64,000 nt of DNA from a virus. Its lineage: Duplodnaviria > Caudoviricetes. The stretch is taken from positions 33,002 through 97,001 of IMG/VR virus record IMGVR_UViG_3300047576_000028. One strand, given 5' to 3'. The position numbers were made by a program, and so were the translations under genes. Below the pieces are notes generated by a model. That model was not told the DNA's origin. It made no database searches and worked only from the letters and a program-made list of their open reading frames with translations. This document shows, piece by piece, positions 7,607 through 63,205 of the stretch. Positions within the stretch are counted from its first letter, which is position 1, and every line of letters starts with the position of its first letter.

Positions 7607-8014
7607 TCAGATCTGGCTGTACCGGCATTCATATTCTAAGGATCGGACGTAGGAACGGTTCGCATCTGAATAACCGTCAATGAACGCTTCCTTGCGAAAG
7701 ATGCCCTGCACTACGGTGGCGTCCGTATCGGGAAGGGTACCGGCGAACCCTCCGCGCAATACATTATCTATCGCGTAGGCGAGCGAGATCGCGTTTGCCA
7801 TAGTGTAGCCGTGACAGTCTACTTGAATCTCAAGAACAGTAAGGCCATCCTGTCCCTCAAGTACGTAGGTCGCTTCCGAAATGATAGCCCGCACCGTCCA
7901 TGCCGAGGAGGCTGTAGCGGAAATCTGGTTGGGCGGCAGTTGCACCATGAAGCCAGGAGCCGGTTGCGCTCCTAACCCTTCCTCAATCAGGAGTTGCAGT
8001 CCAGCTTCTATCAC
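7607..8014 (-). CDS. Tail completion/terminator protein (DUF3168-like)
   Basis: IQVDC motif, 135 aa, gene position; its GTG start is the TCAC target motif of the adjacent mini-element. Confidence 0.65.
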   Translation of the reverse strand: MIEAGLQLLIEEGLGAQPAPGFMVQLPPNQISATASSAWTVRAIISEATYVLEGQDGLTVLEIQVDCHGYTMANAISLAYAIDNVLRGGFAGTLPDTDATVVQGIFRKEAFIDGYSDANRSYVRSLEYECRYSQI

Positions 8015-8092
8015 TAAGTTTTCTCCGAGAAGCCCCTGATATTTTGCATGTGGAATCTAAAAGCCCCTGGCTTTAGCCGTGGAGTTGCTTAC
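8015..8092 (+). mobile_element. Family-A IS200/IS605 miniature element (78 bp, internally deleted)
   Basis: Preceded by TCAC; left end aagttttctccgagaagcccctga fused to right end ...aaagcccctggctttagccgtggagttgcTTAC, matching the end of the tnpB at 48.4-49.6 kb. Confidence 0.85.
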
Positions 8093-8301
8093 TTGGTGGC
8101 AATCCTGAAGCCAGCATCGAGTATCAGGAACTCGCAGCCAGTGCGGGCCTTGGCTCCAGCCAAATAGGTCTCAATATCGGACAGTGATTCTTTGTCCAAT
8201 GGTTCCGCGCATTCGATGACGTACACGCCGCCGCGCTTCAACTGTATTGGCTGTTCTCCGGGAGGACCGCGGCGCAGCCAGTCCCACAGACGCTTGCGCA
8301 T
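8089..8301 (-). CDS. Hypothetical protein; stop codon supplied by the element right end
   Basis: 70-aa ORF within the operon; TAA is the complement of the TTA in TTAC. Confidence 0.55.
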   Translation of the reverse strand: MRKRLWDWLRRGPPGEQPIQLKRGGVYVIECAEPLDKESLSDIETYLAGAKARTGCEFLILDAGFRIATK

Positions 8302-8663
8302 TAGGTAGCACCGCCGATAGCGAGACAGGTCAGCCGCGTTATCACATTCACCTCGTGTTCGTTCTCAACAGATTGGACTATCCACTGTCCACTAGGAGTT
8401 TGTAGTCTGCAACCTCCGATGAAGACTGGGTTATACCACATTGTACACTCCATAATCGAAATGGATATGTCTTGCCCTGCTTTCACCAGATCCGTGCCGT
8501 GCATGTATTCCACTTGCGCCATTACCATGGTCGGATTGTCACCAGGTCCCCAAGTGACAACGCCTCCAGATATCGGGTCAGTCCCCGGAATCGCCACTAG
8601 AAGCGTGACAGGAGTGCGAAATTTTCCAGGATTACAAACAGGCCAACTAGTCTTGCGCGGCAT
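8301..8663 (-). CDS. Head-tail adaptor (head closure) protein
   Basis: NPGKFRTPVTL N-terminus of the gp16-like G.LR..ITI type; size and position. Confidence 0.7.
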   Translation of the reverse strand: MPRKTSWPVCNPGKFRTPVTLLVAIPGTDPISGGVVTWGPGDNPTMVMAQVEYMHGTDLVKAGQDISISIMECTMWYNPVFIGGCRLQTPSGQWIVQSVENEHEVNVITRLTCLAIGGAT

Positions 8664-8666
8664 CGG

Positions 8667-9689
8667 CTATATCCACAGGCGATTGCTGCCGAACAAGGCT
8701 GCGACGGCAAATGGCGGCTCTGCCACGAACCTGATGGCGTCATACGGCACCCTGTCCGTGAACCATTGATTGACAAGCAGAGTCATGCCTTGCGCGATAC
8801 TGGTCTTCACTACCGGGGCAGACGCTGTGGTCAGTGCCGTGACATTGAAGGTAGCGCCAGCGCCATATCCGCCAGTCGTGATGTAGGGCGTGCTTATCGA
8901 ATTGACGGCGTACAGCGAACCTGGATCGTATATGCTCCACGTCAATGGGTTACCGACGCTATCCACCGTGAGAAGCTGCAATGTACCACCATATCCTCCA
9001 CCATTAGTCACGCCGTTATCATTGGCATCATACACGCGCTCTGCCGGTGACAGAAATAATAGGTCTCCAACTTGATAACCTCCGGCTCCAGGAGATACCA
9101 ACGTAACTGCCGAGATCCCAGTCTGGACATACCACCAAGGGATGAAACCGCTCAGGAATCCTACATGAATGGCGGATGAGGGCCAGAGGTTAGTCACGGG
9201 CCATCCAGTACTCGGCGGTGAAGGATAGATAATGCCCGGCTCCTTCCACGAGTCCACGATGTAGTCTGGCACTCCACCAGCCGCCACAGAGGCGGGCGTG
9301 CCTTGCACCAGATTGTGCAATACACCGCAAGAATCGTAGTAGTAGGCGTACTGCACAGATACTAGCGGGGCCGGTAGTTGTATGGCGTTGAGGTTGGCCG
9401 GGATATTATTCAGTAGGCGGTAAGCATCGGAGGGCCAGGACCCAAAGTAGGGATTGGCGATTGAGCAAGGGTCGAACATCGGTATACCGGGCCACTGGTC
9501 AATCGCAAGATCCCACTGTTTCAGCGTCATCTGACGCCCATTCCAGATTTCCGCCATCATGCGCGCCGCTACAATCAGACCGCCAATGTATTGATCCTGA
9601 TCCGTTAGCGTCGTGTAGCGTAACTGTGCTTTCGCCTGCGACACTTGAACCGCTTCAACACCTGAATCGGAGATGAGTTTAAGATTCAT
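8667..9689 (-). CDS. Head-tail connector (gp6-like) with a Gly-rich inserted domain
   Basis: N-terminal EAVQVSQAKAQLRY..DQYIGGLIVAAR and C-terminal IAQGMTLLVNQWFTDR motifs; 340 aa, much longer than typical. Confidence 0.7.
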   Translation of the reverse strand: MNLKLISDSGVEAVQVSQAKAQLRYTTLTDQDQYIGGLIVAARMMAEIWNGRQMTLKQWDLAIDQWPGIPMFDPCSIANPYFGSWPSDAYRLLNNIPANLNAIQLPAPLVSVQYAYYYDSCGVLHNLVQGTPASVAAGGVPDYIVDSWKEPGIIYPSPPSTGWPVTNLWPSSAIHVGFLSGFIPWWYVQTGISAVTLVSPGAGGYQVGDLLFLSPAERVYDANDNGVTNGGGYGGTLQLLTVDSVGNPLTWSIYDPGSLYAVNSISTPYITTGGYGAGATFNVTALTTASAPVVKTSIAQGMTLLVNQWFTDRVPYDAIRFVAEPPFAVAALFGSNRLWI

Positions 9690-9697
9690 CCATCAGC

Positions 9698-12136: not shown

Positions 12137-13513
12137 TTAGTAGTTCACCGCCTGAGCGACGGCAATGGACTGGTCGTACCGCATGACGAAGTCGTTCTCC
12201 TCGATCACGCGAATCACGGTCTGGTCTTGCGCGAAGGCGGATACGGTATTCCCGCCCGCGTCCACGTAGGCCGCTTCGGTCGAGACATCGAGCACCAGGT
12301 TAGCGCCTTCACCAATGACGGCATCTGGCATGTTGACGAAGTACCACTCGGAGGCCGATGTGCCGGAAGTGCCGGTCGCTCCAGCCGTAGCGCCGGACAG
12401 ATTGATGGGGATCTGCGAGGTATACGAGAATCCATAACCAAGCAGGTTAGCGGATGCCGGGTCCAAAGACATTTCCGGGAAAGCGTACTGCCCGGTCGTG
12501 GGGTTACGCAGGGTCTTCAGGTAAATCATTGAGCGGGGTGAAAAGAACCAGTGCCCAGTATTCAGGGTTACCTGAACGTTGGCGGCCAAGAGCAAGCCGA
12601 TAGCGTTGCCCAGATCTGAGGTGATGTGGGTAATGTCGAGGGTCGTGGTCGAACTGACCGGATTGATGAAATTCCCCGGTACTGCCCAGTTGCGCATGCC
12701 CTTTGGGGCGTATTGGGTGCCAGCGCCGCGCAGGAAGTTGTAGTCTTCGGTTTGCGCTACGGCCCGGATCAAGTCGGCCCTAATGACGGCGTCGGTATTG
12801 GGATTGGCATAGCGGATCAGGTCGTTCGAAATCGGAATCAGCGCTGCCAGTTTCTTGGCGGTCAGCTTAACGTTGCCCAACTGCTGCTGGGTAGCCGGAA
12901 TGTTCGTGTTCTCACCGATGTAGGAAGCGCTCGCACCGCCAGTAATTTTGGGCAGCGAAAGGTTTCCATTCGGCAAGGGCAGAACGCGCGGTTCGGCAGC
13001 CCGGACTACGCTGGCAGGACGCAGGAATTCGATAAACTCCTCCGACAGCATAGTAGGGACCGCGAAACCGCCCCCAGTGGCGATGGAGACCGAAAGGGCG
13101 CGGGCAACCTCAGGGTCATGGAGGGTTTGCTCTGCCCATTCGGCAGCGGCGCGTCGATCCCGGCTGAAGCCGATGGCGCGCACGCAGTTGATGAAGCCTT
13201 GGCCTTTGGCGCGTTTCGCCACCTGTCCCGCTACTTCGACATGGTGACCATCGCCGAGGGCCTGTTGGTTGGTTACGGCGAGTTCGGCATCCGCCTTCAT
13301 CTGCCGTTCCTCGCGTTCGACACGGGCAAGCAAACTTGCGGCTTCGGTATGCTTACGGTCGTAAATGGTTTGCTCACCAGGTATAACCGTACCGTCGGCG
13401 GCTTTGGTGTCTAGCGTGAAGTCGCGGTTAACGGCTTCCGCCGTGTCAATCATTGCACGGGCTTCCTTGATAAGCGCAGCCCGCTGTTGCCGTAAAACAA
13501 TTGTATTCGGCAT
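12137..13513 (-). CDS. Major capsid protein, HK97 family
   Basis: N-terminal coiled-coil delta domain; GGFAVP, YIGEN, KKLAALIPISNDL and FLRGAG..PKG motifs. Confidence 0.95.
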   Translation of the reverse strand: MPNTIVLRQQRAALIKEARAMIDTAEAVNRDFTLDTKAADGTVIPGEQTIYDRKHTEAASLLARVEREERQMKADAELAVTNQQALGDGHHVEVAGQVAKRAKGQGFINCVRAIGFSRDRRAAAEWAEQTLHDPEVARALSVSIATGGGFAVPTMLSEEFIEFLRPASVVRAAEPRVLPLPNGNLSLPKITGGASASYIGENTNIPATQQQLGNVKLTAKKLAALIPISNDLIRYANPNTDAVIRADLIRAVAQTEDYNFLRGAGTQYAPKGMRNWAVPGNFINPVSSTTTLDITHITSDLGNAIGLLLAANVQVTLNTGHWFFSPRSMIYLKTLRNPTTGQYAFPEMSLDPASANLLGYGFSYTSQIPINLSGATAGATGTSGTSASEWYFVNMPDAVIGEGANLVLDVSTEAAYVDAGGNTVSAFAQDQTVIRVIEENDFVMRYDQSIAVAQAVNY

Positions 13514-13669: not shown

Positions 13670-13712
13670 ATCAGTTCGCGAGAGAAACCGCTGGCTTTAG
13701 CCATGCGGAGGG
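13670..13712 (+). mobile_element. Family-B IS605 left-end remnant
   Basis: gaaaccgctggctttagccatgcggaggg is identical to the left end at about 37422-37450; TCAT at 13666-13669. Confidence 0.7.
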
Positions 13713-13762
13713 CCCACCGTAAACGGAGGGATTGCTCGGCGTTATCGTTCAAGTTCTACCCG

Positions 13763-15433
13763 TTAGTTCTCCAACTCCATCTGCCTCAGCCGGAGACGCC
13801 GGAACCGGTGGGGGCTAATTTTGCTTGCCTCTACTCCTGTCAACTGGTCACCAGAACGGACCTCCACGCTGGTTCCAACGTATGCCGGATCGGACACCAC
13901 GCTCAACCGGCGCACGAGAATTTTGGTCAGCGTGCGGACCTGTTGGCCGTTAGCGTCAGTTGAGATCTGCTGTCCGTCAGGCAACACGCGAAAGCTGAAA
14001 CTGCCTTGCGTCACGTCGCCGCGCTCCATCGAGATACGCAGGTCCTTGTACCACTGAGCGTCTTCAGGCGGGTTGGCGTCCATGAGCACGCCACGGTCGT
14101 CGATGGATGCCTTGAGGGTACCGGCAGCAACACGGCCTAGTATATGATCCGAATTGTGGTTGTAGTCGGCCCTGAGATCCACGTCGAAAGTAATGGCTCC
14201 CGGTGCAATGATCTCGCGGAAGGTCGAAGCGCCCCTGGTATCGCCGCCCATTTCCAATGAAAACTCCCCAAAGCGAATCGGGTAGCCGACAATATGCCCG
14301 TCCCCAGCCGCCCGAAACTCGCACTTGAATGATCGCGTCTCGTCCCCGGCGCGCCGGTCTGTTCGCGCCTCTTCCCCTTCGGTCTGGCCCTTAAGGGCTG
14401 TCGCCATTGAGGCGCAGTGGTCCGCGCAGCGCGTTGCAACGTCGCCGCAAGCCCGAATCATCTCATGCCCGTGGTCGCCGCCACAAGTGCCCGCCAATGC
14501 GCGGCACGCCGATGCTGTAAGGCCATGCGCCTCCGCCGTCAGCGGAGAACCACGCTGGGACAGGTCTCCGCACAGCCCTACGGTCCCCATAGCATCGCGC
14601 AACGAACTGTGGAGGTTCTTGGGCATCGTAGAATCGCCGTACATCGTGTCTGCGTACTCGCCAGCCCCCCTACACGCCCCGTAGCAGCGCCGCAACTCAC
14701 GGTAGGTCTGCTCTACCCCAGGAGCCTCGTTCGGGTCCTTCGCTACCATAGCCCGCTCAATGAAGTCCCTATGCAATCGCAGCATGGCCCGAAGTTCAGC
14801 CCGCGCCGGGGGCATGGAGCGCTCTGCCTGGATCGGGCACTTCTTGCAGTTCGGGTCGTCGCAGCCCTTGCCGGTACAGACATCGCAGTTGCCCTCCATG
14901 CAGTTCTGGCAACCGCATGAGCAACCTACGCCAGCATCGGATGAGTCGGTCGCCGCCCGCTTATGATCCTTTGCCGGGTTCGACCGGCCGGCCTGAATCG
15001 GGCAATCATCGCAATTAGGGTCATTGCATTCGGTATTGCAGCATGACCCGCACAACCCCATTAAACAAGGCGCGCAGTCACAATTACAGGACCCCTCGCT
15101 CCGCTTGGAAGAGGCGATGTAGGTGACGCCTTTGTCCTGCCAACGATATTCCCAGTCTCCGTCGGCATTCTTCGATTCGGAAGGCAGATCCCATGCTTGG
15201 GCGGCATAGATTTTCTTCAGTTTGGCAAGGGCCTCCGCTTTTGAGGGACCCGCGTATTTGTTGCCACGATATCCATTAGTCAAAGCCGCGAACGCCGCGC
15301 CGCACAGTCGATGGTCTGGATTGCCAGATGCATCGGTATATGGAAGATGAGTTTTACCGTCGCTATCGGTGACCAAAAACTTCACCGCGCGCTCCTCGGA
15401 AGGCGACTTCCTGCCGATGTCTAATACTGCCAT
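13763..15433 (-). CDS. HK97-type prohead protease with a long N-terminal extension containing Cys-rich repeats and a Cys four-helix-bundle-like segment
   Basis: C-terminal FREIIAPGA, YNHNSDHILGR, QGSFSF and LSVVSDPAY (peptidase S78); two ~33-aa Cys-rich repeats upstream. Confidence 0.85.
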   Translation of the reverse strand: MAVLDIGRKSPSEERAVKFLVTDSDGKTHLPYTDASGNPDHRLCGAAFAALTNGYRGNKYAGPSKAEALAKLKKIYAAQAWDLPSESKNADGDWEYRWQDKGVTYIASSKRSEGSCNCDCAPCLMGLCGSCCNTECNDPNCDDCPIQAGRSNPAKDHKRAATDSSDAGVGCSCGCQNCMEGNCDVCTGKGCDDPNCKKCPIQAERSMPPARAELRAMLRLHRDFIERAMVAKDPNEAPGVEQTYRELRRCYGACRGAGEYADTMYGDSTMPKNLHSSLRDAMGTVGLCGDLSQRGSPLTAEAHGLTASACRALAGTCGGDHGHEMIRACGDVATRCADHCASMATALKGQTEGEEARTDRRAGDETRSFKCEFRAAGDGHIVGYPIRFGEFSLEMGGDTRGASTFREIIAPGAITFDVDLRADYNHNSDHILGRVAAGTLKASIDDRGVLMDANPPEDAQWYKDLRISMERGDVTQGSFSFRVLPDGQQISTDANGQQVRTLTKILVRRLSVVSDPAYVGTSVEVRSGDQLTGVEASKISPHRFRRLRLRQMELEN

Positions 15434-15992: not shown

Positions 15993-17492
15993 TCAGTTAG
16001 TACTCATTGGACCTTTGCCATGTCCGGTATCATACGGCGGAGTTTTCTTTACCTTAACTGGGTGGCTTCCGTTTTGCGCTACAACAACCGGATCGTCGGA
16101 CACGGGAGCGTCAACCGTCTTTGGCGTTGGCTTCTTGCCATTGTTGGTGGGGGCTGCATTTGGGGGAGTTTTGCCATCCTCTCCCTCGTCTTCGCCCTGC
16201 GGCGGCATGACCTTCCCGCCCATGCCGTTCTCAAAGATGTACTTAACGGTCGCCATCGCTCCGTTCATATACTTACCGTCCATCTCTGGGTCTGGGTCTG
16301 GATTGAATCCGTCTATACTTCGCGCTTCATTTGGACTGATCTCACCGCACGCTATCAAGGTTTGGTTGCGCCGTGACATACTCAACACATCTCCCCGCAG
16401 TAGGGCGGATAGATCATGACGGCAGGTGATGGCGTCATTATTGCCGAGCACCGTTATGTTACATTTCTGCTCAATACGCTCCATTGCGGGAGCGATGGTG
16501 TGCTTGGCGAAGTAAATATCGCCCTGCTCTGCCGAAGCGTAGGTAGCGGTACCAGGGGCCGCCATCATGAATGCGGGCATGTCGAACACACGGCACAACT
16601 CAAGGACTTGAAAATTCCGTCCCTCGATAAACTGGGCATCTTCGGGCGACATTTTCATCTCGTGGAGTTTCATGCCGCCGTACATCAATGCGACCTTCCC
16701 GGCTTCGTCGAGCGCTCCAGTGTTTTCGCGCCATGTCGCCATGAACTTGTCGCGGTCGTCGATCATGCCGGGTATTTCGATCCAATAAGGCGGCTTTCCA
16801 CCGTGCTTCAGGAAGCGCCCGAAGTACTCTTCCTGGCCTAGCCCCAGGCCGACAGCCTGCCGCATGAGCGTTATCGGAGAGAAGCCCATTAAGCCATCGA
16901 AGCCGAGATAGGGGATATGGAGGATGTCCTGCCATGGGTAAATTCCAGGCCGCACCGGCACGCTGTACGGATTGTGCGGAAAGTATCTGTAGACCAATTC
17001 TCCACCAATAGCAGTTCGCAATACTTGTACATACCCCGGCTCAAGCGGCCAGATATTCCGTAACCTGCCTGCCCCATCCCACTCCAGATAGTTGTAGGAG
17101 TTCCCCCAGAGCAACAAACTTGCCACCATTTGTTCGCGCCATTGGAAGCTGGACATCTCGCTATTTGGCTCTTCCTTCAGCATTCGATAGCGGTAGTCGT
17201 TTATGGCTGGGGTTTTGGTATCGCTGTTCTTGCCGGTGTTGATAAAGGTAATCAAGGGGCACGAGGCTACCGCTTTGGCGATCTTGGACACACAGCCATA
17301 CACCGTAGCCATCGTCATGGCTGTGGCGGGACTGACAGGACGCCCGGTATACGTGGACGCTCCTGTACTTAGCAGGTTGTAGATCGCGCTGCCAATCTTG
17401 GCGTTGCCGAAGTCGCGGCGTTCGAACACAGGTGGTCCGTTAAGGATGTCGTGTCCGTTACGCTGTGTTAGCGTGCCCAACGTTTCAATCAT
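15993..17492 (-). CDS. Portal protein, HK97 family
   Basis: VYGCVSKIA, EPNSEMS, LLWGNSY, GFSPI, DAQFIE.R and ISPNEAR motifs. Confidence 0.95.
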   Translation of the reverse strand: MIETLGTLTQRNGHDILNGPPVFERRDFGNAKIGSAIYNLLSTGASTYTGRPVSPATAMTMATVYGCVSKIAKAVASCPLITFINTGKNSDTKTPAINDYRYRMLKEEPNSEMSSFQWREQMVASLLLWGNSYNYLEWDGAGRLRNIWPLEPGYVQVLRTAIGGELVYRYFPHNPYSVPVRPGIYPWQDILHIPYLGFDGLMGFSPITLMRQAVGLGLGQEEYFGRFLKHGGKPPYWIEIPGMIDDRDKFMATWRENTGALDEAGKVALMYGGMKLHEMKMSPEDAQFIEGRNFQVLELCRVFDMPAFMMAAPGTATYASAEQGDIYFAKHTIAPAMERIEQKCNITVLGNNDAITCRHDLSALLRGDVLSMSRRNQTLIACGEISPNEARSIDGFNPDPDPEMDGKYMNGAMATVKYIFENGMGGKVMPPQGEDEGEDGKTPPNAAPTNNGKKPTPKTVDAPVSDDPVVVAQNGSHPVKVKKTPPYDTGHGKGPMSTN

Positions 17493-17503: not shown

Positions 17504-18199
17504 CTAGAGCGGTACCGACATCAGTCCCCATTTTGGCGTGGGGATAGAAGCCTGAAGCCGGCGCAGCGCGATGATAGTCGCGACCACACCATCGATCCGT
17601 TTGCTGCTTTTCTGGCGGTTAGGTTTTACCGGCTTGATATTCGCCGCCGATTCGTCTTGGGCTATTGCTGTACAGTCCACATTCCACCGCAGGACTTGAT
17701 GCCCACTGTGAACCAACTTGCCGGACAGCACCAAAGACTCAAAATACTTGCTTGGGGCGCTCAGTGAAATGTAGCCCTGGCCCACGTCAACTACTTCGAT
17801 ATCAACGTTAGCCAAATCCGATACGGTGTCGCGCGCGCCGTGGCGATCAAAACCGATTTGCTTGATGTCGAATATCTTATCCAGTTCCTTGATGCGCTCA
17901 CGGCAGTATCCCCAATCGGTAACCGGCCCAGGGGTCAGTTCTACAAGTCCTTGCTTGGCCCATAGGTCATACCGTACATTGTCTTTCTTGGACCGTTCCA
18001 GCAAGCCGTCTTCCGGTATCCAAAACCATACATGCACGTAGACCGATTGTTTGATGAGCCAGACTAACGAGAACGCAGTGAGATCGGAGACGGCGGCTAA
18101 ATCGAGGCCCCCGTAACATGGATATTTAACCAGTTGCTCGCAGAACTTCTGCCCGTCCGGATCTCTAGTGATTAGCGGAGTTGCTGCTGGTGCGGCCAT
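17504..18199 (-). CDS. terL: Terminase large subunit, C-terminal nuclease half
   Basis: CYGGLDLA, IGFDR, VGQG and KRIDGVVA motifs. Confidence 0.85.
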   Translation of the reverse strand: MAAPAATPLITRDPDGQKFCEQLVKYPCYGGLDLAAVSDLTAFSLVWLIKQSVYVHVWFWIPEDGLLERSKKDNVRYDLWAKQGLVELTPGPVTDWGYCRERIKELDKIFDIKQIGFDRHGARDTVSDLANVDIEVVDVGQGYISLSAPSKYFESLVLSGKLVHSGHQVLRWNVDCTAIAQDESAANIKPVKPNRQKSSKRIDGVVATIIALRRLQASIPTPKWGLMSVPL

Positions 18200-18255: not shown

Positions 18256-19236
18256 TTACCCATTTGACGCCGCGATGGGTTGCCCGTCCCACTTACAGGC
18301 ATCCCAGTCTATCATGGGTATCCAACAGGAAGCACTGTTAACCCACTGCGACAAATGTAGTTGTTGAAAGTCGCGTTGCAGGCGCGGGGTCCTAACCGCC
18401 CGTTCAAACTCTTCCTCCAGGATCTCCATATTGACAGTAATCCCAAGGGCCGGATTCGCCAACGGCCACAGGGACTTGTCTGTCCAGTCTGCTTCCCTGG
18501 GGACCTCGTAGATCATCGGAAGGTAAGTGGGGTCTTCAAACACTGCAGGCACGAACTTCCCATCTTTATCCCTTGTCGGCGTGATGTTCTTAGCGTAAAG
18601 ATATTCCTGCCCGCACATCGTCTCTTCGTCCACACCAGCCGTGGTTATGTATACCTCAAGCGGTTGCCTACGTGCGCCGCGTCCGGTAGTTAGTGCCTTG
18701 CGAAGGTCTTCTTCCCGAGCACCCCACACATGGAATTCGTCGTAGAGGATAGTGCTTGGATTCGAGCCGTGCTTGGCCTTTCCCTCAGACGACAAAGCCT
18801 TAAACATACCCTTGTTCTTGCGATGTCGAATCTCCTTCCGATATGGGATCACTTGTAGTAGATCCGGCAATTCCTCGTGCGCCATCACCATCTCGGAAGC
18901 CGCTTCATACAGCTTGCTACTTTGCTCTGAGGTTTTGGCGGCTGCGTATATCTCCTGATAAGGTTCCGGGTCCATGACTAGTAGGTCTAAGCCAAGTGCT
19001 GCGCATGACTGCGTTTTGGAATTTTTCCTGCCCACAGATAAGAAAGCCGTTCTGTATAGTCGCGTGCCATCCGCGCGCTTCCACCCTAACAGGTTTCCGA
19101 TCAACTTCTTTTGAAATGGCATCAGCCGAAACGGCTCCGGCTTGCCGCTCTGCGTGGACTTAGTAAGGGTTAGCGACTCGATAAAGGCGAAGTCCAGCAG
19201 CACGCTGGTGTCGAAGTATATGCCGTCGATGTCCAT
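18256..19236 (-). CDS. terL: Terminase large subunit, N-terminal ATPase half
   Basis: LMPFQK, Walker A VGRKNSKT, Walker B LYDEFH, YITTAG and W..ANPALG motifs. Confidence 0.9.
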   Translation of the reverse strand: MDIDGIYFDTSVLLDFAFIESLTLTKSTQSGKPEPFRLMPFQKKLIGNLLGWKRADGTRLYRTAFLSVGRKNSKTQSCAALGLDLLVMDPEPYQEIYAAAKTSEQSSKLYEAASEMVMAHEELPDLLQVIPYRKEIRHRKNKGMFKALSSEGKAKHGSNPSTILYDEFHVWGAREEDLRKALTTGRGARRQPLEVYITTAGVDEETMCGQEYLYAKNITPTRDKDGKFVPAVFEDPTYLPMIYEVPREADWTDKSLWPLANPALGITVNMEILEEEFERAVRTPRLQRDFQQLHLSQWVNSASCWIPMIDWDACKWDGQPIAASNG

Positions 19237-19492: not shown

Positions 19493-19657
19493 GTAAGCAA
19501 CTCCACGGCTAAAGCCGGGGGCTTTTAGATTCCACATGCAAAATCTCAAAACATTTCGCTGCGGTTCGAGTCGGCTTACTCCGGCCATGCCGGACGACCG
19601 CGCCGATTCTCCCGTCCTCCCCATGACTGGAGTCAGGGGCTTCTCGGAGAAAACTTG
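19493..19657 (-). mobile_element. Family-A miniature element (165 bp)
   Basis: Near-identical to 41925-42089 and 63041-63205; TCAC target motif (gtga at 19658-19661) and TTAC end. Confidence 0.9.
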
Positions 19658-21729: not shown

Positions 21730-22304
21730 AATTCCAATTATAGCGCGCCCATTTCAGGGGAGTTTTCTTGAAGTGACCGGATTCACGGCAGACGGAGCAC
21801 TTGCGGGTTGACCATGGGCGCAGTAATGGCGTATTCGTCCCCAGCCCTTAACATCGCACTATGGTAGCGCATCAATTCGTAGCCGCGTTCCAAAGATCCT
21901 GTTGAAATTCGCCAGTTCCATGACTTCAGGCGGTTCAGTTCCGGCTCTTTGCCCGCCGTCAGCTTTGCGTTGAACTGAACCCCAAACAGGACCGCCCTGG
22001 ATTCACTTCGCGCGGATGTGCCCGGCGTACTTGTTGCGTGAGCAGACCCAGGCGCGTGGACTATATCGTGCTGGCGCAAAATCCGTCTTTCGCGTCATGC
22101 GAACGCCGCAGTCTTCGCACTTATCTCGCTTTCAGCTAGTCGTCGAATTCGCTCATCGCGTCCTCCGTGTCGATTGCGCGCGATCTGCATCTCAAGAGAC
22201 GTGCGTTGTTCCGCGAGGTCGGATGGCGTTCCTGCCGTTCCGCTCCAGTTCCCTCCATGCGATGTCGCAACCACGAATTCTTCTCTCGTCATTGGGATAT
22301 TATA

Positions 22305-22326
22305 CTTTAGCCGTGGAGTTGCTTAC
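22305..22326 (+). mobile_element. Family-A right-end remnant
   Basis: ctttagccgtggagttgcttac is an exact 22-bp match to the element end. Confidence 0.7.
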
Positions 22327-42089: not shown

Positions 42090-42236
42090 TCGCGGTTCCC
42101 GCGCTTCCGCTTTGCGCCTTCTCTTGAGGCTATCGCTCAGCAGAAGTCTCACCAAGTCCTGTAGTAACATCCCTTCGCACACCGCCTGCATCTTCAATTC
42201 GCGGTGCAGGACAGCGTCAATCTTGATAGCGGTCAT
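42054..42236 (-). CDS. Ribbon-helix-helix protein reading into the mini-element
   Basis: TAIKIDAVLHRELKMQAVCEGMLLQDLVRLLL. Confidence 0.6.
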   Translation of the reverse strand: MTAIKIDAVLHRELKMQAVCEGMLLQDLVRLLLSDSLKRRRKAEAREPRVSNSTAKAGGF

Positions 42237-46290: not shown

Positions 46291-46307
46291 AAGGGCCTTT
46301 CGCGCGG
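46291..46307 (+). mobile_element. Family-B left-end remnant
   Basis: TCAT followed by aagggcctttcgcgcgg, as at 50839 and 60360. Confidence 0.6.
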
Positions 46308-48032: not shown

Positions 48033-48346
48033 ACAGTCCGAGTGTATGCTGCCGTGCGCTCACATGTCAAGCAGTCGTTTCACGCGGCGCGGCCAATAGA
48101 CCCCTGCACTCCAGACGCATTTCGGCAGCATAATCGAGCATTCCAAGAAGCTGACAGCCAAGTGAATCCATATCGCACGCGCCGCGATGGACGATGCGCC
48201 CGTATCGGTCGGTGATGTGGTTGCCCATGACGCACCACCGGGTCTCAATCCATACATCTGCGAGTTTCAGAAATTCGCGCTCCCAGTGGGTCATGCTTCG
48301 ACCTCATCGGCAACGTCTTCTTCCGTGACTGGCTCGAAGTCCATCG

Positions 48347-50389: not shown

Positions 50390-50728
50390 TTATAATCCAC
50401 GTGTGATCCCTGGTTGCTTCATTCTTTCAGGGTGGTCCTTGCGGAATACATAGAAGGCGTCGATACGGTTCTGAATGCCACGCATTTGAAAATCGGTGCA
50501 TCCTTCCTCGCCGCATTCGGTGCGGTATGGAATAAGCGCGCCGACCAGGGCGATATTATCCCTTGCACGAAAGAGGCACAACGGCTCATCTTCGGGTATC
50601 GGCTGAGCGGTAGAGTTCTTCACCACGCGGAGTTTCCCGTCAATGACGGCCATGCCATACTTGGGATCTATGGGCGTAATCTCGATACGCGGCAGTATCG
50701 GTAATCTTATTTGTTTGTCGTCTGTCAT
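50390..50728 (-). CDS. Hypothetical phage protein
   Basis: IPEDEPLCLFRARD motif. Confidence 0.55.
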   Translation of the reverse strand: MTDDKQIRLPILPRIEITPIDPKYGMAVIDGKLRVVKNSTAQPIPEDEPLCLFRARDNIALVGALIPYRTECGEEGCTDFQMRGIQNRIDAFYVFRKDHPERMKQPGITRGL

Positions 50729-50838
50729 AATAGGCTCCGTTGCCCCGCATTCTCTCCCTGTGCGGCTTTCGGGGCGTCGGCAGGGCGGTCATTACCGACG
50801 CCGAAGGCAGAAGCGGTGAATAGATCGCGGTAGTTCAT

Positions 50839-50876
50839 AAGGGCCTTTCGCGCGGGAAACCGCTGCCTTCAGCCAT
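50839..50876 (+). mobile_element. Family-B left-end remnant
   Basis: TCAT followed by aagggcctttcgcgcgggaaaccgctgccttcagccat. Confidence 0.75.
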
Positions 50877-51892
50877 ATCTGTATCAATTACAGAAGCGCC
50901 GGAATCCAGCATGAAGCGGTCCTGTCCGTAGCGTTCGATTAAGGCGCGTCTCACTTCAGCGTTGCTCTCGGCGAGAATAGCGGATGACGTTACTTCCTGG
51001 CAGTAATACTTCCAAGACATCCGAATGCCATGCCATGCATAAACTCCCCAACCATCGCCATAGGAAATGGCCGCTTCCGTAGCATGATGCAACCGCCCGC
51101 GCTCATCAAGATGCAAGGCTGCCGGTTTCTCGGTAGCTAGCACCATATGCTTAAATGGCCACCACCATCCACAGTGACGGGCCTGCTCAAACAGCCCGTC
51201 TAGTTTCTCGCACGCTTTAAGGCCACAGACGTCGAGGAAATAGGAATAGAATGATAGCACTCCTGCATCGTGAGATCCATACACGCTGGCCCCCACGCTG
51301 GCCACGCTGGCCCCCACGCTGGCCCACGCTGGCCCCCACGCTGGCCCGCACGCTGGCCCACACGCTGGCCCACACGCTGTCCCACCCTGGCCCACACGCT
51401 GTCCCGCACGCCCACCACGCTGTCCCCCACGCTGGCCCCCACGCTGTCCGCTGGCCCACACGCTGTCCCTCACGCTGTCCCCCACGCTGTCCCTCACGCT
51501 GGCCCCCACGTTGGCCCCCACGCTGTCCCACACGCTGTCCCACAGGCTGGCCACCACGCTGGCCACCACGCTGGCCCGCACGCTGTCCCGCACGCTGTCC
51601 CGCACGCCCCCACGCTGGCCCACACGCTGGCCCACACGCTGGCCCACACGATCTTGCGGTTGTCACGCAAATTCGTAACAACCGTGTAGGCTAGAGCGCC
51701 AGCTAATGGCGACTTGAACCACACGATTCGCTTAGGCGCGGCCATGCCAGCCTTCTCATAACACAGATGGATAGCTGCCTCTGCCTTTGCGTGGTCCGTA
51801 GGCTCAACGGAAAGCCCGATAGCCTTCCACCGGGCTACGACTTCTGGGAAACGTGCTATCTGTTCAGGCGTTAGGGACTCAATTCGTGCCAT
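50877..51892 (-). pseudogene. Second DUF6745-like allele, frameshifted within the 12-bp repeats
   Basis: Flanking domains are near-identical to 40216-41357; partial repeat units break the frame. Confidence 0.75.
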
Positions 51893-57731: not shown

Positions 57732-60359
57732 GGAGCATCCTATTCGGCCTTAACTAAAAACGGAGTCAATAAAGCCCGTTCCGTAGTCCATCCAAGCATA
57801 GATCCGCACTTACAATGCAGCATTTGAGGTTCACTAGGCGGAGTCTTACGTAGAACTTTCATGACTGTATCCCCCACACTGCTTCAATGGCTTGCGCTGC
57901 TTGCGTAAGCGTAGCGAACACTCCTAGAAAGCCGGTGCCGAACTCTGTTCGCGGAAAGCGGCCATCGTATGCGCGGTACTGATGTGGATCTTGACGTGGC
58001 TCGGGCTTCACGAATCCCCAGTGCCCTTTGTAATAAGCTTCGTATTCGCCTTCGTTAAGAAACCAGTGCAGTGTCATGTGATTAGCCTATTATAGGTGAG
58101 ACGCTTACCTACGCACCCGGCAACGAAGCTATTGAGCCGCGCCGTGGTGTGGTTGCGGACGTTACCCTCGTTCAGTCGGAAGGTGAACTCATCGACGTAG
58201 CGATGCAGGTGCTTTTTGCTACCGCTCTCGGGTACTTCGCATACAACTTCATCAAGATTCATTCGACTCTCCGCACGACTCCTGCGATGGCCGCTGGAGT
58301 GACTGATCGCCTCTGGGAGGTATCGGATTTAGTTGCCGCGTGGGAAGCGGACGAACGGCGCGAAGAGATAGCCGCATAAAGCGCCGAACCTAGACTAATC
58401 AGACGAACGATGACAATCGATCCCAGCGCCAGAAATAAGAAGCAAGATCGTTTCCATCGGCTCTTCGGTTGGGATTCACCTAAGGCCGTCGCAATCGTCC
58501 ACCTTGTTTTTGAGTGGCTAGAAACAGTATCGCTGGCGTTGGCTATTGGTCTGGTTACCCAGCAGACATTCGCGGGTAGGGACTGGTACTCAATGCCGGA
58601 TTTGCAAAACGTGGTTGCAGGCTGCGCTCTGGCAGATTGGCTCAACGCTAACAGCATCGCCACGGCCATTAGCGCAATACACAACCGGCCAGCAGATAGC
58701 GTAGTGGTGGTTAATGTAGGCCCAAAACCAACAACGCTAGGAATGTTGAATGAGTTGAGATCACAGGGAAACTGGAACTTCTGGCGTAGCCAAGAGCGCG
58801 CTCCGTTATATAGACCGATAGCGGCAGAAGATGTTAAATCACTCCGTCTCTTGCTGGAAAAGATCGGTGGAGGAGACACAGCCTTCTTGCAATTTATGGG
58901 CGTGGCGCGTGTCGAGGATATCCTGCAATACGATTTCCCAAAAGCCGTGAATGCCCTGAGGGGTAAACTGCGCGGGATGGGGCAATAACGCCAAAGTAGC
59001 CCACTACCGGAGTTTTCATCGCACCACATGGCCGCTATGCGAATGGCTTCCTCTCGCCGTATTTTGGCATGTTCAAATACGCCGTGCCTGCGTAGTGTTT
59101 CTACCTCGTCTGGTTCGATGCTAGACGGAAGCAGGGAACCGTCTTTCGAGATATAGAGCACGCTGTCGTAACTCTCATCTTTGATAGCGCCGCGCATCTC
59201 CACGATGTCATCCGATGCGCCAAAGATAACCAGAAGACCGTTAGTCTTAGCGGCTAGTTCCTCGGTAGCTAGAAGTTCCTCGCCGTATTCACGTCCGTTC
59301 AGAGTAGAAGCTAAAGATTCTTTCGTCATTGATTCGCGACCTGTCGCGGCACCGAATTTATGATCCATTCCGACTTCTCGGTAATGGTCTTCCATGGCGC
59401 TGTGTTCTCGCTGCGCATCTTCCCATTCGACCTCCACCCCTTTGCCCGCTGGTCCGCTTCATTCACGGGATTGTCCGCGTGCCAACCTCTGCCTCTAAGT
59501 TGCGCTCTACCTTTATGTCGTCCATAAAGATATGTTCGCTTGGCTTCGGAGTTTGTGAGCCTTCGCCAATACCTGAGAAAATACCATATGGGCTGCACAT
59601 TAGCGCTGCCGAAGCCTCCGTTTGGAATCGGATAGCTTTATGAGGATCGTCCGTCCAAATCGGATTATCGTAATCAAACCCCGCAAGCCAGCGCGGAAAC
59701 TGATGACGTTCTGCAAACCAGCAAATTGCGTCGTTCATGGCTGCCTCTTTCTTGCCAATACTAAATCGTTTGGATCGCCGTCCAGAATGCCTATTATGTG
59801 GCTTATACTTCCGTCCCGCGCTCGGCACTCATCACCGCCATCAATCATATCAAGCAGTTCAGCCGTTGCCAGATAGACGCGCTCTTCGCAAGCCTTCTTA
59901 AGTTTGGCGCAGCTTTCAAATCTATCCCTTAAAACAGCAACGGCCATCGTGCTAGGGCATTCATTGCGTAGCTTCTGCCAGCCTTCTTCGCCCTCTGCAA
60001 TATGCTCGCATGCTTTGACACGGAGCATTTCAGCATCGCATTTTGTACAACTGATCGCCATATCCTCTCTCCCGCCACACTTGCCGCCTCTGCGACCATC
60101 CCGGCGTCATCGTTTCGGACAACGACTTGCCAGTCCGCAAGTCTTCGCGCTCTTGCGCCGCTATTACAAGCTCTTGCCAGCGGTAGAAATCACGTGCAGC
60201 CGCTTGCAGAAATCCGCGTGACATTGAACAGCAGCCATCGGTCATTCGATACGCGCCGCTATTGCCAGTAGTGTCAACTACTGGGATGGGTTCCGGGGAA
60301 TTCGAGTACTCCTGCCGCGTGGCCGCGCACTGATGGCAGCGGATGTCTGTTTCGTTCAT

Positions 60360-60391
60360 AAGGGCCTTTCGCGCGGCGTGCGGTAGTTTAC
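60360..60391 (+). mobile_element. Family-B miniature remnant (32 bp, left and right ends fused)
   Basis: TCAT, then aagggcctttcgcgcg, then gcgtgcggtagtTTAC. Confidence 0.7.
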
Positions 60392-60727
60392 TGACCGCTC
60401 CGATTAGTAAGTTCCCTTAGCCTTTGGATGCAGCACGTTGTCGCCTCCGCTTCTCGGCCGTTTGGCCGCTTTTTCCTTCTTCGATGAATCGCTCCGGATT
60501 CCTCGCCCGGTAAAGACGTGCGCGATGGTTGAGTTTGTCTACCATCGCCTGATTGCACTTGACGATCACGGCTTCCGCATCGCGTAGCAGCTTGCGCGAC
60601 ACGCGGTACTCCGTCCATTTGCGTGCCATGGCGGGCGTTTGAAAGCAGAATATGTACCCTAATATTATCCCGCCGACGAATCCAAGCGCTACGCCGACCA
60701 GGACCAGTGCGGCAGCGGACGCGCCGG

Positions 60728-60892
60728 TCATCGGCGCGCCTTTTCCGCATCTCGCAACCACGGCTTAATCGCGTCCAACACAATCGCGTTGGCTGTAGTC
60801 CCCTGCTGCGCCGCCAGAATCTTCACGCGCCGCCAGGTGCTCTCTGGGCATTTCAGCCTAATCACGATGTTGCCTTCAGCAGCGGTAGCCAT
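60728..60892 (-). CDS. Ribbon-helix-helix regulator
   Basis: Manual translation MATAAEGNIVIRLKCPESTWRRVKILAAQQGTTANAIVLDAIKPWLRDAEKARR; upstream promoter with a GTACACC..GGTGTAC palindrome. Confidence 0.65.
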   Translation of the reverse strand: MATAAEGNIVIRLKCPESTWRRVKILAAQQGTTANAIVLDAIKPWLRDAEKARR

Positions 60893-60971: not shown

Positions 60972-61000
60972 AAAAAAGCCCCGGCGTTTCTGCCGGGGCC
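60972..61000 (-). terminator. Rho-independent terminator
   Basis: gccccggc-gtttct-gccggggc stem with an A6 run on the left side (U-tail on the minus strand). Confidence 0.7.
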
Positions 61001-61121
61001 GTCGCTTGCACTTCAGCGGGCTGCCGTAAAACGCAGAAAAGGCCCCGCTACCGTCCCAAGCTTGTCAAGGGCAAAGACGGCGGCGGGGCCTTATCTCAGA
61101 GATTCAAAGGGATTCGGCTAA

Positions 61122-61919
61122 GTAAGCAACTCCACGGCTAAAGCCGGGGGCTTTTAGATTCCACATGCGAAATATCAAAACATTTCGCTGCGGTTCGAGT
61201 CGGCTTACTCCGGCCATGCCGGACGACTCCGCCTGCTGCAATGTTCATGGCGGCTTGAATATCCGCATGAGCAGTGCCACAGGTTGTACACGAGAACACG
61301 TCGCCCCTGCGCTTGCCGAGCGCGCCGCATTGGGCGCACGTCTGACTAGTATATGCAGGGTCTACGTACTCGATCTTGATTCCGCAACGCGCAGCTTTAT
61401 AGGCAACGAAGGCTTGCAGTTGCCCAAACGACCAGCCGGACATCATCCGGTTGGTGTGCCTGTTGCGGATCTTGCACCGCTGCCGAATATCTTTGAGCCG
61501 TTCCATCCGAATAATCCCGGATTGCGTGTCTTTGGCTTCGGCAACGATGGCCTTGCTGAGATTGTGGTTCGACCACGTAATATGGCGGCGCTCCCGCCCA
61601 GAGAGTCTGCGCAGTACCTTGCGGGCACAGCGGTTGTTTCTGGACTGGAGGGATGCGCGAACTTTGTTGCGCCCGTTCTTAAACTTCTGCCTGCTGGACC
61701 CGCTATACAGCGTGCCGTGAGAGGTCGCGGCAGTATTTCGGATGCCGAGGTCAACGCCCATGGGCGGTCCATCGGCAGGCGGGGGGTCTTTGTCTTCGAC
61801 AACGATGTTGATCTGCCAAGCGCTTCCGGCCCGGACCACAACGGCAGCAGTAGGCTTCTTCCCCGTCAATGCATCTCTCTGATAATCACCCAAGATCAGC
61901 GGGACATGAATGCGTCCGC
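61122..61919 (-). pseudogene. tnpB: 5'-truncated inverted copy of family-A tnpB with its right end
   Basis: Reverse complement of 48785-49582 (798 bp, a few SNPs); N-terminal ~118 codons missing. Confidence 0.9.
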
Positions 61920-62302
61920 AACCCGGAAGGCGCGCGCTGATGCGCGCTGAGAAGTACAGCAGCGCGCGCCGTGGTGGACCACATTTGACGCTGGGAGTAG
62001 GCGTCTAGGCACAATTCCATTGTGCCACGGTTTTCCCGCCTTGTCTACCCAAAACATATTACCACTAAACAACTGAAACGATGTACCTTGGTCAAGAGGC
62101 ACAGAAACCGGATTGGCTACTCAAAGATCTGCAAGAGAATAGCGCACACTTTCAAGTAACGCCCGCACACGTCACACCCGCACCACCAGCCAGTAGTCGC
62201 GGCGTGATCCATTAGAAATTGGAATTGCTCCCATAGCACGTCCGCCTGTTGCGCCTTTTCTGGGATTCGCGGTAGCTCTATCGGCGCTGGTGCCATCGAC
62301 CG

Positions 62303-62713
62303 TTACCCCAACGTAGATCCAATTCTCACCGACAGTTCGGACGTAGGTCGCGCGAACTTCTCGAAGATTCGATTCCAGCGCTCGTTTTGTTCGGCGGCTC
62401 TTTGTCCCGGCAGTTTGGGTATTATCCCCGGCTTTGCTTTCGGCGCTGCCAGAGTAGGAGGTGGCGGCTTTGAGACATGCTTCCGCACTTCCCGAATCTC
62501 AATTTCGCCGCGTTCGAACAAAACGGCCAAACGCACCGCCATATTGCCGCTCTGCGTCATGCGTGAGTAGACCTGGTTCGACAACGTAACCCTAACTGAC
62601 CCTTCGGCAATTCCAAGAATAGCCCCCACCTCGCGAGAGGTTTTCCCTTGAGCGGTCAGGCGTATAATGGCGTATTGACGCGGCGTAACTGACAGCATTC
62701 GAGCGCCGGTCAA
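62303..62713 (-). CDS. LuxR-type HTH protein
   Basis: VTPRQYAIIRLTAQGKTSREVGAILGIAEGSVRVTL. Confidence 0.75.
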   Translation of the reverse strand: MTGARMLSVTPRQYAIIRLTAQGKTSREVGAILGIAEGSVRVTLSNQVYSRMTQSGNMAVRLAVLFERGEIEIREVRKHVSKPPPPTLAAPKAKPGIIPKLPGQRAAEQNERWNRIFEKFARPTSELSVRIGSTLG

Positions 62714-63040
62714 TCGGTCGGCTTATCCAAATTGCGGATCTCTTCCGCTATCGTGCTGCCGAGCGAGATCCAATGATTGTCCGCAATGGCGGCGCACTCT
62801 ACGCGCGCCTTCACGATTGCCTCTCTAACCAATTGCCGCGCCGCAAGCCGGTGCTCGGGATCGGTAAAGGCCATGTGTTGATGGACAGCTTCCTCCATCA
62901 ACTCCTCAACCTTTCGGCGCGTTCGCGGATCGTCGCCTTTTCGGAACGGCCATGATGTAGCGTTTGGTGTGGGCATATGTGTAATTCTCCTGTGATTCCA
63001 AAGTCATTTCTTCTTGGTTACCCGTAGATCCAATTCTCAC

Positions 63041-63205
63041 CAAGTTTTCTCCGAGAAGCCCCTGACTCCAGTCATGGGGAGGACGGGGGAATCGGCGCGG
63101 TCGTCCGGCATGGCCGGAGTAAGCCGACTCGAACCGCAGCGAAATGTTTTGATCTTTCGCATGTGGAATCTAAAAGCCCCCGGCTTTAGCCGTGGAGTTG
63201 CTTAC
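63041..63205 (+). mobile_element. Family-A miniature element (165 bp)
   Basis: TCAC at 63037-63040; ends TTAC at 63202-63205. Confidence 0.9.

What the first reader, a model, noticed from the sequence alone, without database searches (positions are those of the whole stretch)
8011..63205. Gene-sparing insertion logic: target motifs are GTGA/ATGA stop-start overlaps and the TTAC end restores the stop codon
Seen: family A inserts after TCAC (GTGA on the minus strand) and family B after TCAT (ATGA); both end in TTAC (GTAA). Insertion at an (A/G)TGA overlap therefore turns the upstream TGA into TAA in the same frame and leaves the downstream start intact. Element-supplied stops occur for ORFs 8089..8301, 38668..39087 and 63202..63510. 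The target motif coincides with a start codon at 8014 (tail completion), 33550, 37404, 46290 (rusA), 50838 and 60359. Counter-example: at 41925 the insertion appears to split an in-frame ORF. Inference: this motif pairing makes coupled junctions of a dense phage genome safe harbours, even within the essential tail operon. Purifying selection alone could also produce the pattern.
Basis: partly seen in the sequence, partly recalled or inferred. Interest (0 to 1): 0.72.

Follow-up and report, generated by a model that had tools for sequence, protein, structure and literature searches.

The report
Mini-transposons parked at gene junctions
A 97-kb phage genome carries about twenty tiny IS200/IS605-type jumping elements that mostly sit exactly where one gene stops and the next starts, and whose last four bases rebuild the stop codon they split, so both genes stay whole; the pattern is real, but it is explained by the known target rule of this transposon family plus the loss of harmful insertions.

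Summary
The window has two TnpB-bearing IS200/IS605 elements, one truncated copy and eleven protein-less derivatives of 17-165 nt (three of them fragments). They follow TCAC (family A) or TCAT (family B and minis) and end in TTAC. Nearly all lie antisense to the genes.

On the gene strand the target reads GTGA/ATGA and the element end reads GTAA. An insertion at a 4-nt stop-start overlap therefore keeps the start codon and changes TGA to TAA.

- Site 8014: nineteen related phages lack the element there, and nine carry the predicted GTGA or ATGA overlap.
- Outside the window, two minis sit between genes of 1694, 1928 and 503 codons.
- Elements with related right ends in other viral and metagenome contigs behave alike (9 of 15 start-like; background 12%).

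Corrections:
- The stop before 60359 is not element-supplied.
- 37404 opens only 25 codons.
- The label "tail completion" has no HMM support.

The adaptive "logic" is not shown. TCAC, NTGA and TTCAT targets, and target-like right ends, are already published for this family. Enrichment over all TCAY sites is huge. Enrichment over harmless sites alone is not robust (p 0.0003-0.67).

Other first-stage notes on this genome describe the same pattern.

The parts
8015..8092 (+). A1, a 78-nt family-A mini-element. Target TCAC at 8011-8014 is the GTG start of 7607..8014. Its TTAC end supplies TAA for 8089..8301.
13670..13759 (+). B5, a TCAT-type left end; the right boundary is uncertain. Target TCAT at 13666-13669; the complementary ATG opens 44 codons that are not an IMG gene call.
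19493..19657 (-). A4, a 165-nt family-A element in sense orientation, lying in an intergenic gap. Its target GTGA is at 19658-19661 on the + strand.
22293..22326 (+). A9, a 34-nt remnant after TCAT (22289-22292), ending in GCTTAC. Together with the flank it forms a sigma-70-like TTGTAA-18-TATAAT site on the minus strand.
33551..33600 (+). B2, a 50-nt single-hairpin mini. Target TCAT is the ATG of the called 57-aa ORF 33377..33550. The upstream gene keeps its own TGA at 33601.
35470..35539 (-). A7, a 70-nt right-end fragment of family A.
37405..38671 (+). B1, the full family-B element. TnpB is at 37522..38655. The target is TCAT at 37401-37404. Its TTAC end supplies TAA for 38668..39087.
41925..42089 (+). 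A2, a 165-nt family-A element that splits one open frame (42236..42090 plus 41924..41655).
46291..46307 (+). B7, a 17-nt family-B left-end remnant directly upstream of the rusA ATG at 46290.
48347..49582 (+). A5, family A with TnpB (open frame 48187..49566). The first ~21 nt of the left end are replaced, so it is probably immobile. The right end is intact.
50839..50876 (+). B4, a 38-nt left-end remnant. Target TCAT is the ATG of the called 37-aa ORF 50725..50838. The upstream 270-codon ORF reads through the remnant to the TGA of ATGA.
60360..60391 (+). B3, a 32-nt micro-element lying between the native Shine-Dalgarno sequence (SD, the ribosome-binding site) and the ATG of the called 109-aa ORF 60030..60359.
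61122..61919 (-). A6, a 5'-truncated family-A copy holding the 3' part of tnpB and the right end.
63041..63205 (+). A3, a 165-nt family-A element. Its TTAC end supplies TAA for the called 102-aa ORF 63202..63510. The complementary GTG at 63040 opens 44 codons.

Best explanation
What the repeats are: IS200/IS605-family transposons carrying TnpB only (IS1341-type), together with their protein-less deletion derivatives, called PATEs (palindrome-associated transposable elements).

How they move: a Y1 transposase (TnpA), not encoded on the contig and therefore inferred to act in trans, inserts the single-stranded element 3' of TCAC or TCAT.

Why they sit at junctions (inferred steps):
- The complement of the target is GTGA/ATGA. 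In a 91-96% coding phage genome, the TCAY sites where an insertion does no harm are therefore mostly gene starts and 4-nt stop-start overlaps of genes on the opposite strand.
- Insertions elsewhere are removed by selection. This also explains the antisense orientation bias.

Why the stop is rebuilt (shown from the sequence):
- In this family the right-end motif (TTAC) resembles the target motif, so the new junction on the gene strand reads G-TAA in the same register as the old (A/G)-TGA.
- The upstream protein is unchanged.
- The downstream gene keeps its start codon but loses its native ribosome-binding site and its coupling to the upstream gene.

Internal deletions between the two similar end hairpins then shrink elements to 32-165 nt (inferred, by analogy with PMC3119063).
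For: Family membership:
- TnpB domains OrfB_IS605 and Cas12f1-like TNB are present.
- Imperfect hairpins lie near both ends, and there are no target duplications or terminal inverted repeats.
- The same GCTTAC right end occurs on TnpB and IscB elements in metagenomes.

Junction placement:
- Minis lie exactly between genes of 1694, 1928 and 503 codons. Excision restores ATGA overlaps, with CAA to CAG and CCA to CCG as the only codon changes.
- At site 8014 all 19 relatives are empty. L036 and L043 have a GTGA overlap; L028-L033 and L045 have ATGA. The upstream 70-aa ORF is homologous to the upstream ORFs of L043 and L039.

Census of TCAY sites: 63-72 of 1184 are junction sites, and 41-94 are intergenic.

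Independent loci:
- 9 of 15 insertions with both ends defined are start-like, against a background of 11.9% (p 1e-5).
- 18 of 30 right ends met by a long antisense ORF are in the G|TAA frame (p 0.0025).

Literature:
- Target TCAC for AmaTnpB (PMC10278001).
- NTGA for DtIsrB (PMC9581776).
- Target TTCAT with end TTCAC, and the similarity of target and end motifs, in Geobacillus elements (PMC10055086).
- 52-bp terminal-only PATEs made by deletion between repeats (PMC3119063).
Against: - No TnpA gene lies on the 85%-complete contig, so mobilisation is inferred.
- Empty alleles were obtained for one site only.
- A2 interrupts an open frame. A5 and several external copies extend the antisense ORF by about 11 codons instead of ending it at TAA.
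- All nine TCAT-type copies abut an ATG. If the small ORFs are real, that is more than a pure harmless-site lottery predicts (my own binomial estimate from the counts, no tool run: p 0.009 to 6e-5).
- GC skew would place the element's top strand on the leading-strand template, opposite to the lagging-strand preference I recall (from memory, not checked here) for IS608 and ISDra2 (weak, since skew in phages may reflect transcription).
Confidence: 0.68

Rival explanations
1. Evolved junction specialist. This clade's target/end pair (TCAY/TTAC) and the first bases of its left end have been shaped by selection to colonise stop-start overlaps of compact genomes. The end rebuilds the stop, and the complement of the left end provides a new Shine-Dalgarno sequence (SD, the ribosome-binding site) for the downstream gene.
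For: The complement of the left end carries GGAG, AGGAG or GGAGG 4-8 nt before the start codon in family A, L013, L020, L021, L065 and L072, and AAGGA in B1 and B2. All three antisense frames of the right end close within 12 codons (read from the sequences). All nine TCAT-type copies abut an ATG. Placement recurs in unrelated contigs.
Against: SD strength is no better than random in B3, B4, B6, B7, A9, A11, B5, L011 and L022. Among these are the two cleanest junctions, B6 and A11. The variants are related to one another, so they are not independent trials. Similarity of target and end motifs is a general chemical constraint of the family (PMC10055086). Enrichment over harmless sites is not robust. 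Counter-examples are A2 and A5.
Confidence: 0.17
2. Intrinsic insertion bias. The transposase, or the availability of single-stranded DNA, favours the antisense strand at translation-start regions. This could work through a longer target such as TTCAT, or through low local structure, so that junction placement arises before selection acts.
For: A T precedes TCAT in 10 of the 21 TCAT-type events with a readable left flank (7 of the 14 first tallied). This matches the published pentanucleotide TTCAT (PMC10055086). ATGAA is a common gene start (general knowledge). Placement at starts also occurs in contigs that may be bacterial, where intergenic sites are plentiful.
Against: The fifth base is not fixed; G, C and A also occur. 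No experiment or population data separate insertion from survival. Family A shows one intergenic sense-strand copy (A4) and one in-ORF copy (A2).
Confidence: 0.12
3. The short copies are not transposon insertions. They are conserved start-associated regulatory repeats or recombination boundaries, spread with gene modules by homologous recombination.
For: Several copies are left-end remnants of 17-38 nt placed directly before an ATG (46291, 50839). The genome is mosaic, with internal duplications.
Against: The short copies grade continuously into full TnpB elements with the same ends. Flanks differ at every copy. The relatives' alleles at 8014 are clean empty sites with no trace of the repeat. 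The same minis occur in unrelated contigs.
Confidence: 0.03

Closest known systems
IS200/IS605-family elements with TCAN-type targets: AmaTnpB element (TCAC), DtIsrB (NTGA on the other strand), Geobacillus ISGst5 (target TTCAT, end TTCAC)
   Same: The target tetranucleotide lies 5' of the left end. The right-end motif resembles the target. Hairpins lie near both ends. TnpB or IscB cargo is carried, with the guide RNA region at the right end. Many copies lack TnpA and are mobilised in trans (PMC10278001, PMC9581776, PMC10055086).
   Different: Here the host is a phage genome with about twenty copies, most of them under 170 nt. In the papers I searched and read, placement relative to start and stop codons is not discussed.
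PATEs of Haloquadratum walsbyi, including 52-bp terminal-only forms (PMC3119063)
   Same: They are protein-less IS605 derivatives without inverted terminal repeats or target duplications. They shrink to about 50 bp with a single hairpin by deletion between the two end palindromes. The 47-50-nt minis here (B2, A11, L011, L020, L021) have the same look.
   Different: Those are archaeal and chromosomal. The passages returned by my term search of that paper report no link to stop-start overlaps.
REP elements with RAYT transposases, and IS605-derived stem-loops next to Borrelia lipoprotein genes (PMC2775950)
   Same: They are short IS200/IS605-related hairpin repeats lying just outside, or overlapping, the 3' ends of genes.
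   Different: REPs cluster after stop codons in intergenic space and are tied to a domesticated transposase. Here the copies sit at the start codon of the next gene, and their last bases form the stop of the previous one.
Other gene-sparing strategies of mobile DNA: IStrons and group I introns (PMC3984707), and in-frame Rickettsia palindromic elements (PMC10969869)
   Same: In each case the mobile DNA persists in dense coding sequence without destroying the host gene.
   Different: Those elements work by splicing or by in-frame translation through the element. Here nothing is removed or read through. The element lies between two intact ORFs because of where it cuts and how it ends.

Membership tests
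IS200/IS605 family (IS1341-type, TnpB only) and its PATE derivatives | TnpB/OrfB gene with OrfB_IS605 and zinc-ribbon TNB domains | tested here: met
   Pfam PF01385 and PF07282 match 48187..49566, 37522..38655 and the truncated 61138..61893.
IS200/IS605 family (IS1341-type, TnpB only) and its PATE derivatives | Imperfect hairpins near both ends; no terminal inverted repeats; no target-site duplication | tested here: met
   DNA folds show the hairpins at the left and right ends of A2, B1 and B2. The ends differ from each other, and the flanks carry no duplication.
IS200/IS605 family (IS1341-type, TnpB only) and its PATE derivatives | Conserved 4-5-nt target motif immediately 5' of the left end, and a related motif as the last bases of the right end | tested here: met
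   TCAC or TCAT precedes every intact left end, and TTAC closes every right end. The empty allele at 8014 is TCAC followed by flank, that is GTGA on the gene strand, in L036 and L043.
IS200/IS605 family (IS1341-type, TnpB only) and its PATE derivatives | Y1 (HUH) transposase TnpA available for mobilisation | tested here: not met
   PF01797 has no match in the 97-kb contig, which is 85% complete. An autonomous member would need it. Non-autonomous members, which are common in this family (PMC10055086), do not.
IS200/IS605 family (IS1341-type, TnpB only) and its PATE derivatives | Guide (omega) RNA encoded across the 3' end of tnpB and the right end | tested here: inconclusive
   The 112-nt right-end block is conserved at 96-100% in eight copies. 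No Rfam family matches it. No expression data are available.
REP/RAYT system | Single-copy RAYT (TnpA-like) gene flanked by REPs, with REPs in intergenic clusters | tested here: not met
   No Y1 transposase gene was found. The copies are dispersed singly and grade into TnpB elements.

The most novel reading that the evidence does not exclude
IS200/IS605 elements of the TCAY/TTAC clade may be specialised colonists of stop-start overlaps in compact genomes. On this reading, the target is the overlap itself, the right end rebuilds the stop, and the left end supplies a ribosome-binding site. Phage-borne TnpB, guided by the many right ends, then cuts empty alleles in co-infecting relatives, so the minis spread through phage populations like homing elements at almost no cost.
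Probability: 0.15. Interest if true: 0.72.

Novelty: new member of a known kind. Interest (0 to 1): 0.45.

Why it matters
It gives a simple sequence-level reason why one widespread class of transposons can live inside operons of very dense genomes. Their target, read on the other strand, is the commonest stop-start overlap, and their last bases restore the stop.

This helps annotation. Short hairpin repeats between phage genes, TAA stops supplied by a repeat, and displaced ribosome-binding sites can all be recognised for what they are.

It also bears on TnpB and IscB biology, because natural TCAY/NTGA target motifs coincide with gene boundaries.

I found no statement of this in the papers I searched. 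However, it follows from published motifs and needs no new mechanism.

Tried and rejected
Searches for relatives:
- Close relatives found through single proteins gave one distant locus or none (340-aa ORF, 1928-aa ORF, TnpB A).
- The exact 24-nt right-end pattern, and a degenerate version of it, had no match in viral contigs.
The near-identical IMG contigs seen could therefore not be fetched for presence/absence alleles.
- megablast against GenBank phages found nothing.
- Relatives that share the neck gene have a different capsid gene, so other junctions could not be compared.

Gene finding:
- Self-trained codon and Markov gene finders had little power in the right half of the window.
- Two ad hoc gene maps misplaced starts and were dropped.
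- An objective ORF tiling was used instead.

Ideas tested and set aside:
- A general SD supplied by the left end: inconsistent.
- Elements acting as intrinsic terminators or unusually stable RNA structures on the gene strand: not seen.
- Orphan checks: 41655..41924, 60030..60359 and 60388..60783 have no homologues.
- Rfam: no match.
- Defining left ends in viral loci by comparing copies failed, because most repeats were the same locus in duplicate contigs.


Full report
**Setting**

The window is bases 33002-97001 of a 97,001-bp IMG/VR virus record. The record is linear and estimated 85% complete. Most genes lie on the minus strand.

PHROG matches identify these genes:
- large terminase: 18256..19236 and 17504..18199
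- portal: 15993..17492
- head protease: 13763..15433
- major head protein: 12137..13513
- major tail protein: 6222..6704
- tape measure protein: 2439..4859

RusA is at 45775..46290.

**The elements**

Repeat searches and BLAST of the two long copies against the contig gave one related set of elements.

- Family A. Similarity between copies starts right after TCAC with CAAGTTTTCTCCGAG. It ends with ...GCCGTGGAGTTGCTTAC.
- Family B and the TCAT-type minis. Similarity starts right after TCAT. It ends with ...GCGGTAGTTTAC or ...GCGGTTGCTTAC.

Both long copies carry TnpB on the + strand (Pfam OrfB_IS605 and TNB). A third TnpB copy is 5'-truncated.

Both ends hold imperfect hairpins near the tip. 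The ends are not inverted repeats of each other, and the flanks are not duplicated.

No Y1 transposase is encoded on the contig.

These features define non-autonomous IS200/IS605 elements and their protein-less derivatives, called PATEs. The 32-50-nt single-hairpin forms resemble the 52-bp terminal-only PATEs of Haloquadratum, which arise by deletion between the two end palindromes (PMC3119063).

I count 14 copies in the window and at least five more upstream of it.

**What an insertion does to the genes**

Twelve of the 13 copies with an intact left junction lie antisense to the local genes. On the gene strand the target reads GTGA or ATGA, and the element end reads GTAA.

Removing each element in silico gives these junctions.

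*Start and stop both at the junction*
- A1 at 8014: a 70-aa ORF followed by a 135-aa ORF.
- B6 (outside the window): 1694 followed by 1928 codons.
- A11 (outside the window): 1928 followed by 503 codons.
- In these three cases the restored site is a 4-nt overlap. The upstream protein is unchanged (AAG TGA becomes AAG TAA; CAA becomes CAG; CCA becomes CCG).

*Stop only*
- A3: 63202..63510.
- B1: 38668..39087.

*Start only*
- B2: the upstream gene's own TGA abuts the ATG.
- B3: sits between the native GGAG and the ATG of 60030..60359.
- B4, and B7 at rusA.

*Uncertain*
- A9 and B5, which have small ORFs that are not gene calls.

*Intergenic, sense orientation*
- A4.

*Inside an open frame*
- A2. 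The element is 165 nt and has an in-frame stop at 42054.

IMG's own gene calls, recovered by exact look-up, agree with these starts and stops:
- 33377..33550
- 50725..50838
- 8089..8301
- 38668..39030 and 38668..39087
- 63202..63510
- 60030..60359
- 41655..41924
- 42054..42236

One correction concerns 60388..60783. This ORF also ends on the element's TAA but is probably spurious. It has no relative, not even itself, among the 1.8 billion representative proteins. The overlapping frame 60417..60731 encodes a membrane-type protein that is ATGA-coupled to the called ORF 60728..60892.

**Empty alleles**

The 135-aa protein has 35 homologues of 135-138 aa. In the 24 that were aligned, the N-termini line up from residue 1, so the GTG at 8014 is the true start.

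An alignment-based scan found 19 related loci in IMG/VR. None contains the element. In these loci:
- L036 and L043: the start is GTGA, overlapping the upstream TGA.
- L028-L033 and L045: the start is ATGA, also overlapping.
- The remaining loci: the junction is within a few bases, except L038 (26 nt) and L046 (19 nt).

The upstream ORFs of L043 and L039 are homologues of the 70-aa ORF (E 3e-21 and 1e-28). Their C-terminal tails are 4-7 residues longer.

**Is it more than chance?**

After excising ten elements, I tiled the contig with ORFs by an objective rule. I then classified all 1184 TCAY sites under four stringencies.

- Junction sites (start, stop or both) number 63-72, which is 5-6% of all sites.
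- Harmless intergenic sites number 41-94.

Against all sites, 8-11 junction hits among 13 insertions give p from 1e-7 to 1e-12.

Against harmless sites only, junctions already make up 40-63%. There p ranges from 0.0003 to 0.67, depending on the gene map and on whether the small ORFs are counted.

The pattern is therefore far from random. In this contig, loss of disruptive insertions is enough to produce it.

**Independent contigs**

Right-end patterns found 20 metagenome loci and 38 viral loci. The loci carry:
- TnpB elements;
- IscB elements with the same GCTTAC end (RRXRR and HNH domains);
- PATEs of about 300 nt;
- 38-48-nt minis.

For 15 events with both ends defined, I applied an annotation-free rule. 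A site counts as start-like if the complementary start opens at least 60 codons and has an in-frame stop within 31 codons upstream.
- Nine of the 15 events are start-like.
- The background is 11.9% of all (A/G)TGA sites in the same loci (p 1e-5).

Examples:
- L020: 163-aa ORF, 48-nt mini, 371-aa ORF.
- L050: 134 and 67 codons.
- L051: 671 codons.
- L022: a DUF433 gene. There a TAATG overlap becomes TAG through the element's terminal base.
- L072.

I also examined 30 right ends that are met by a long antisense open frame. Eighteen are in the frame where G plus TAA closes it at once. The other two frames have six each (p 0.0025).

The behaviour therefore belongs to this group of elements with related right ends, not to this phage alone.

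**Why the stop is rebuilt**

In Geobacillus IS200/IS605 elements the target is TTCAT or TTTAT. The right-end motif is TTCAC, differing from the target at only two positions. Both motifs are read by DNA guides inside the element (PMC10055086).

Published target motifs also include TCAC for AmaTnpB (PMC10278001) and NTGA for DtIsrB (PMC9581776).

A right end that mimics the target necessarily recreates, at the new junction, whatever the target spelled on the other strand. GTAA or GTGA then stands in the register of (A/G)TGA. This step is my inference.

It accounts for the motif pairing without invoking selection for gene sparing.

**What is not spared**

The downstream gene loses its native ribosome-binding site and its coupling to the upstream gene. 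I scored the complement of each left end for pairing with the anti-Shine-Dalgarno sequence.
- Good (-6.6 kcal/mol): family A, L013, L020 and L021.
- Moderate: B1 and B2.
- No better than random: B3, B4, B6, B7, A9, A11, B5, L011 and L022.

L065 and L072 were not scored, but their left-end complements carry GGAGG 5 nt before the ATG (read).

A supplied ribosome-binding site is therefore a possibility in some variants, not a rule.

The elements are not terminator-like by the consensus scan. They are not unusually structured as RNA on the gene strand.

**Verdict**

- the stop before 60359 is not element-supplied;
- 37404 opens only 25 codons;
- the gene label at 8014 ('tail completion') has no HMM support.

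The elements are new members of a known family.

The junction rule appears unremarked in the papers I searched, but it follows from published motifs.

Other first-stage notes on this genome describe the same pattern. I did not rely on them.

Noticed in passing
window 17504-19236 (gap 18200-18255): The large terminase is split into two ORFs: the ATPase part 18256..19236 and the nuclease part 17504..18199. A 56-nt spacer separates them. The upstream ORF stops at TAA inside ...AATGG|GTAAGGG. On the + strand the spacer follows CCAT and ends in CCCTTAC, which recalls a PATE with a CCAT target (compare the L065 mini). Simple excision does not restore one frame.
   Followed up: partly
window 22299-22328, minus strand: The A9 remnant plus its flank forms a sigma-70-like site, TTGTAA-18-TATAAT (10 of 12 positions). 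Its -10 box ends 7 nt before the ATG at 22292. This would give a nearly leaderless transcript.
   Followed up: no
window 21619-21729, 27885-28029, 31144-31291, and contig 2249-2350: A fourth repeat family of 110-146 nt (96-98% identical) lies upstream of unrelated small genes. The copy at 28029 is followed by ...GGGTAGTTTAC, which resembles a family-B right end.
   Followed up: no
window 54422-56604 and 57550-59732; 40216-41383 and 50899-51918; 44744-45758 and 56600-57347: There is a 3128-bp tandem duplication (99.95% identical) and several dispersed duplicated gene blocks. One is a gene with a 12-nt tandem repeat array (40491-41100). The right half of the genome is strongly mosaic.
   Followed up: no
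window 50839-50900: The 270-codon ORF 50835..51647 takes its last ~13 residues (MAEGSGFPRERPL) from the complement of the B4 left-end remnant. It ends at the TGA of the ATGA that starts the next gene. Its paralogue 40191..41357 has a different tail.
   Followed up: partly
window 19677-19755 and 26354-26432: A 79-nt perfect inverted repeat pair; one copy lies directly beside element A4.
   Followed up: no
L016 (metagenome Ga0066670_10059806), stored coordinates 405-1769: A 454-aa IscB (RRXRR plus HNH) is encoded antisense next to a right end identical in its last 24 nt to family A. About 270 nt of conserved non-coding sequence lie between them. TnpB and IscB elements therefore share one end type.
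   Followed up: partly
window 48291-48350: The TnpB copy of family A has lost the first ~21 nt of its left end, including part of the hairpin foot. It is probably immobile but still able to supply TnpB to the eight family-A right ends.
   Followed up: no
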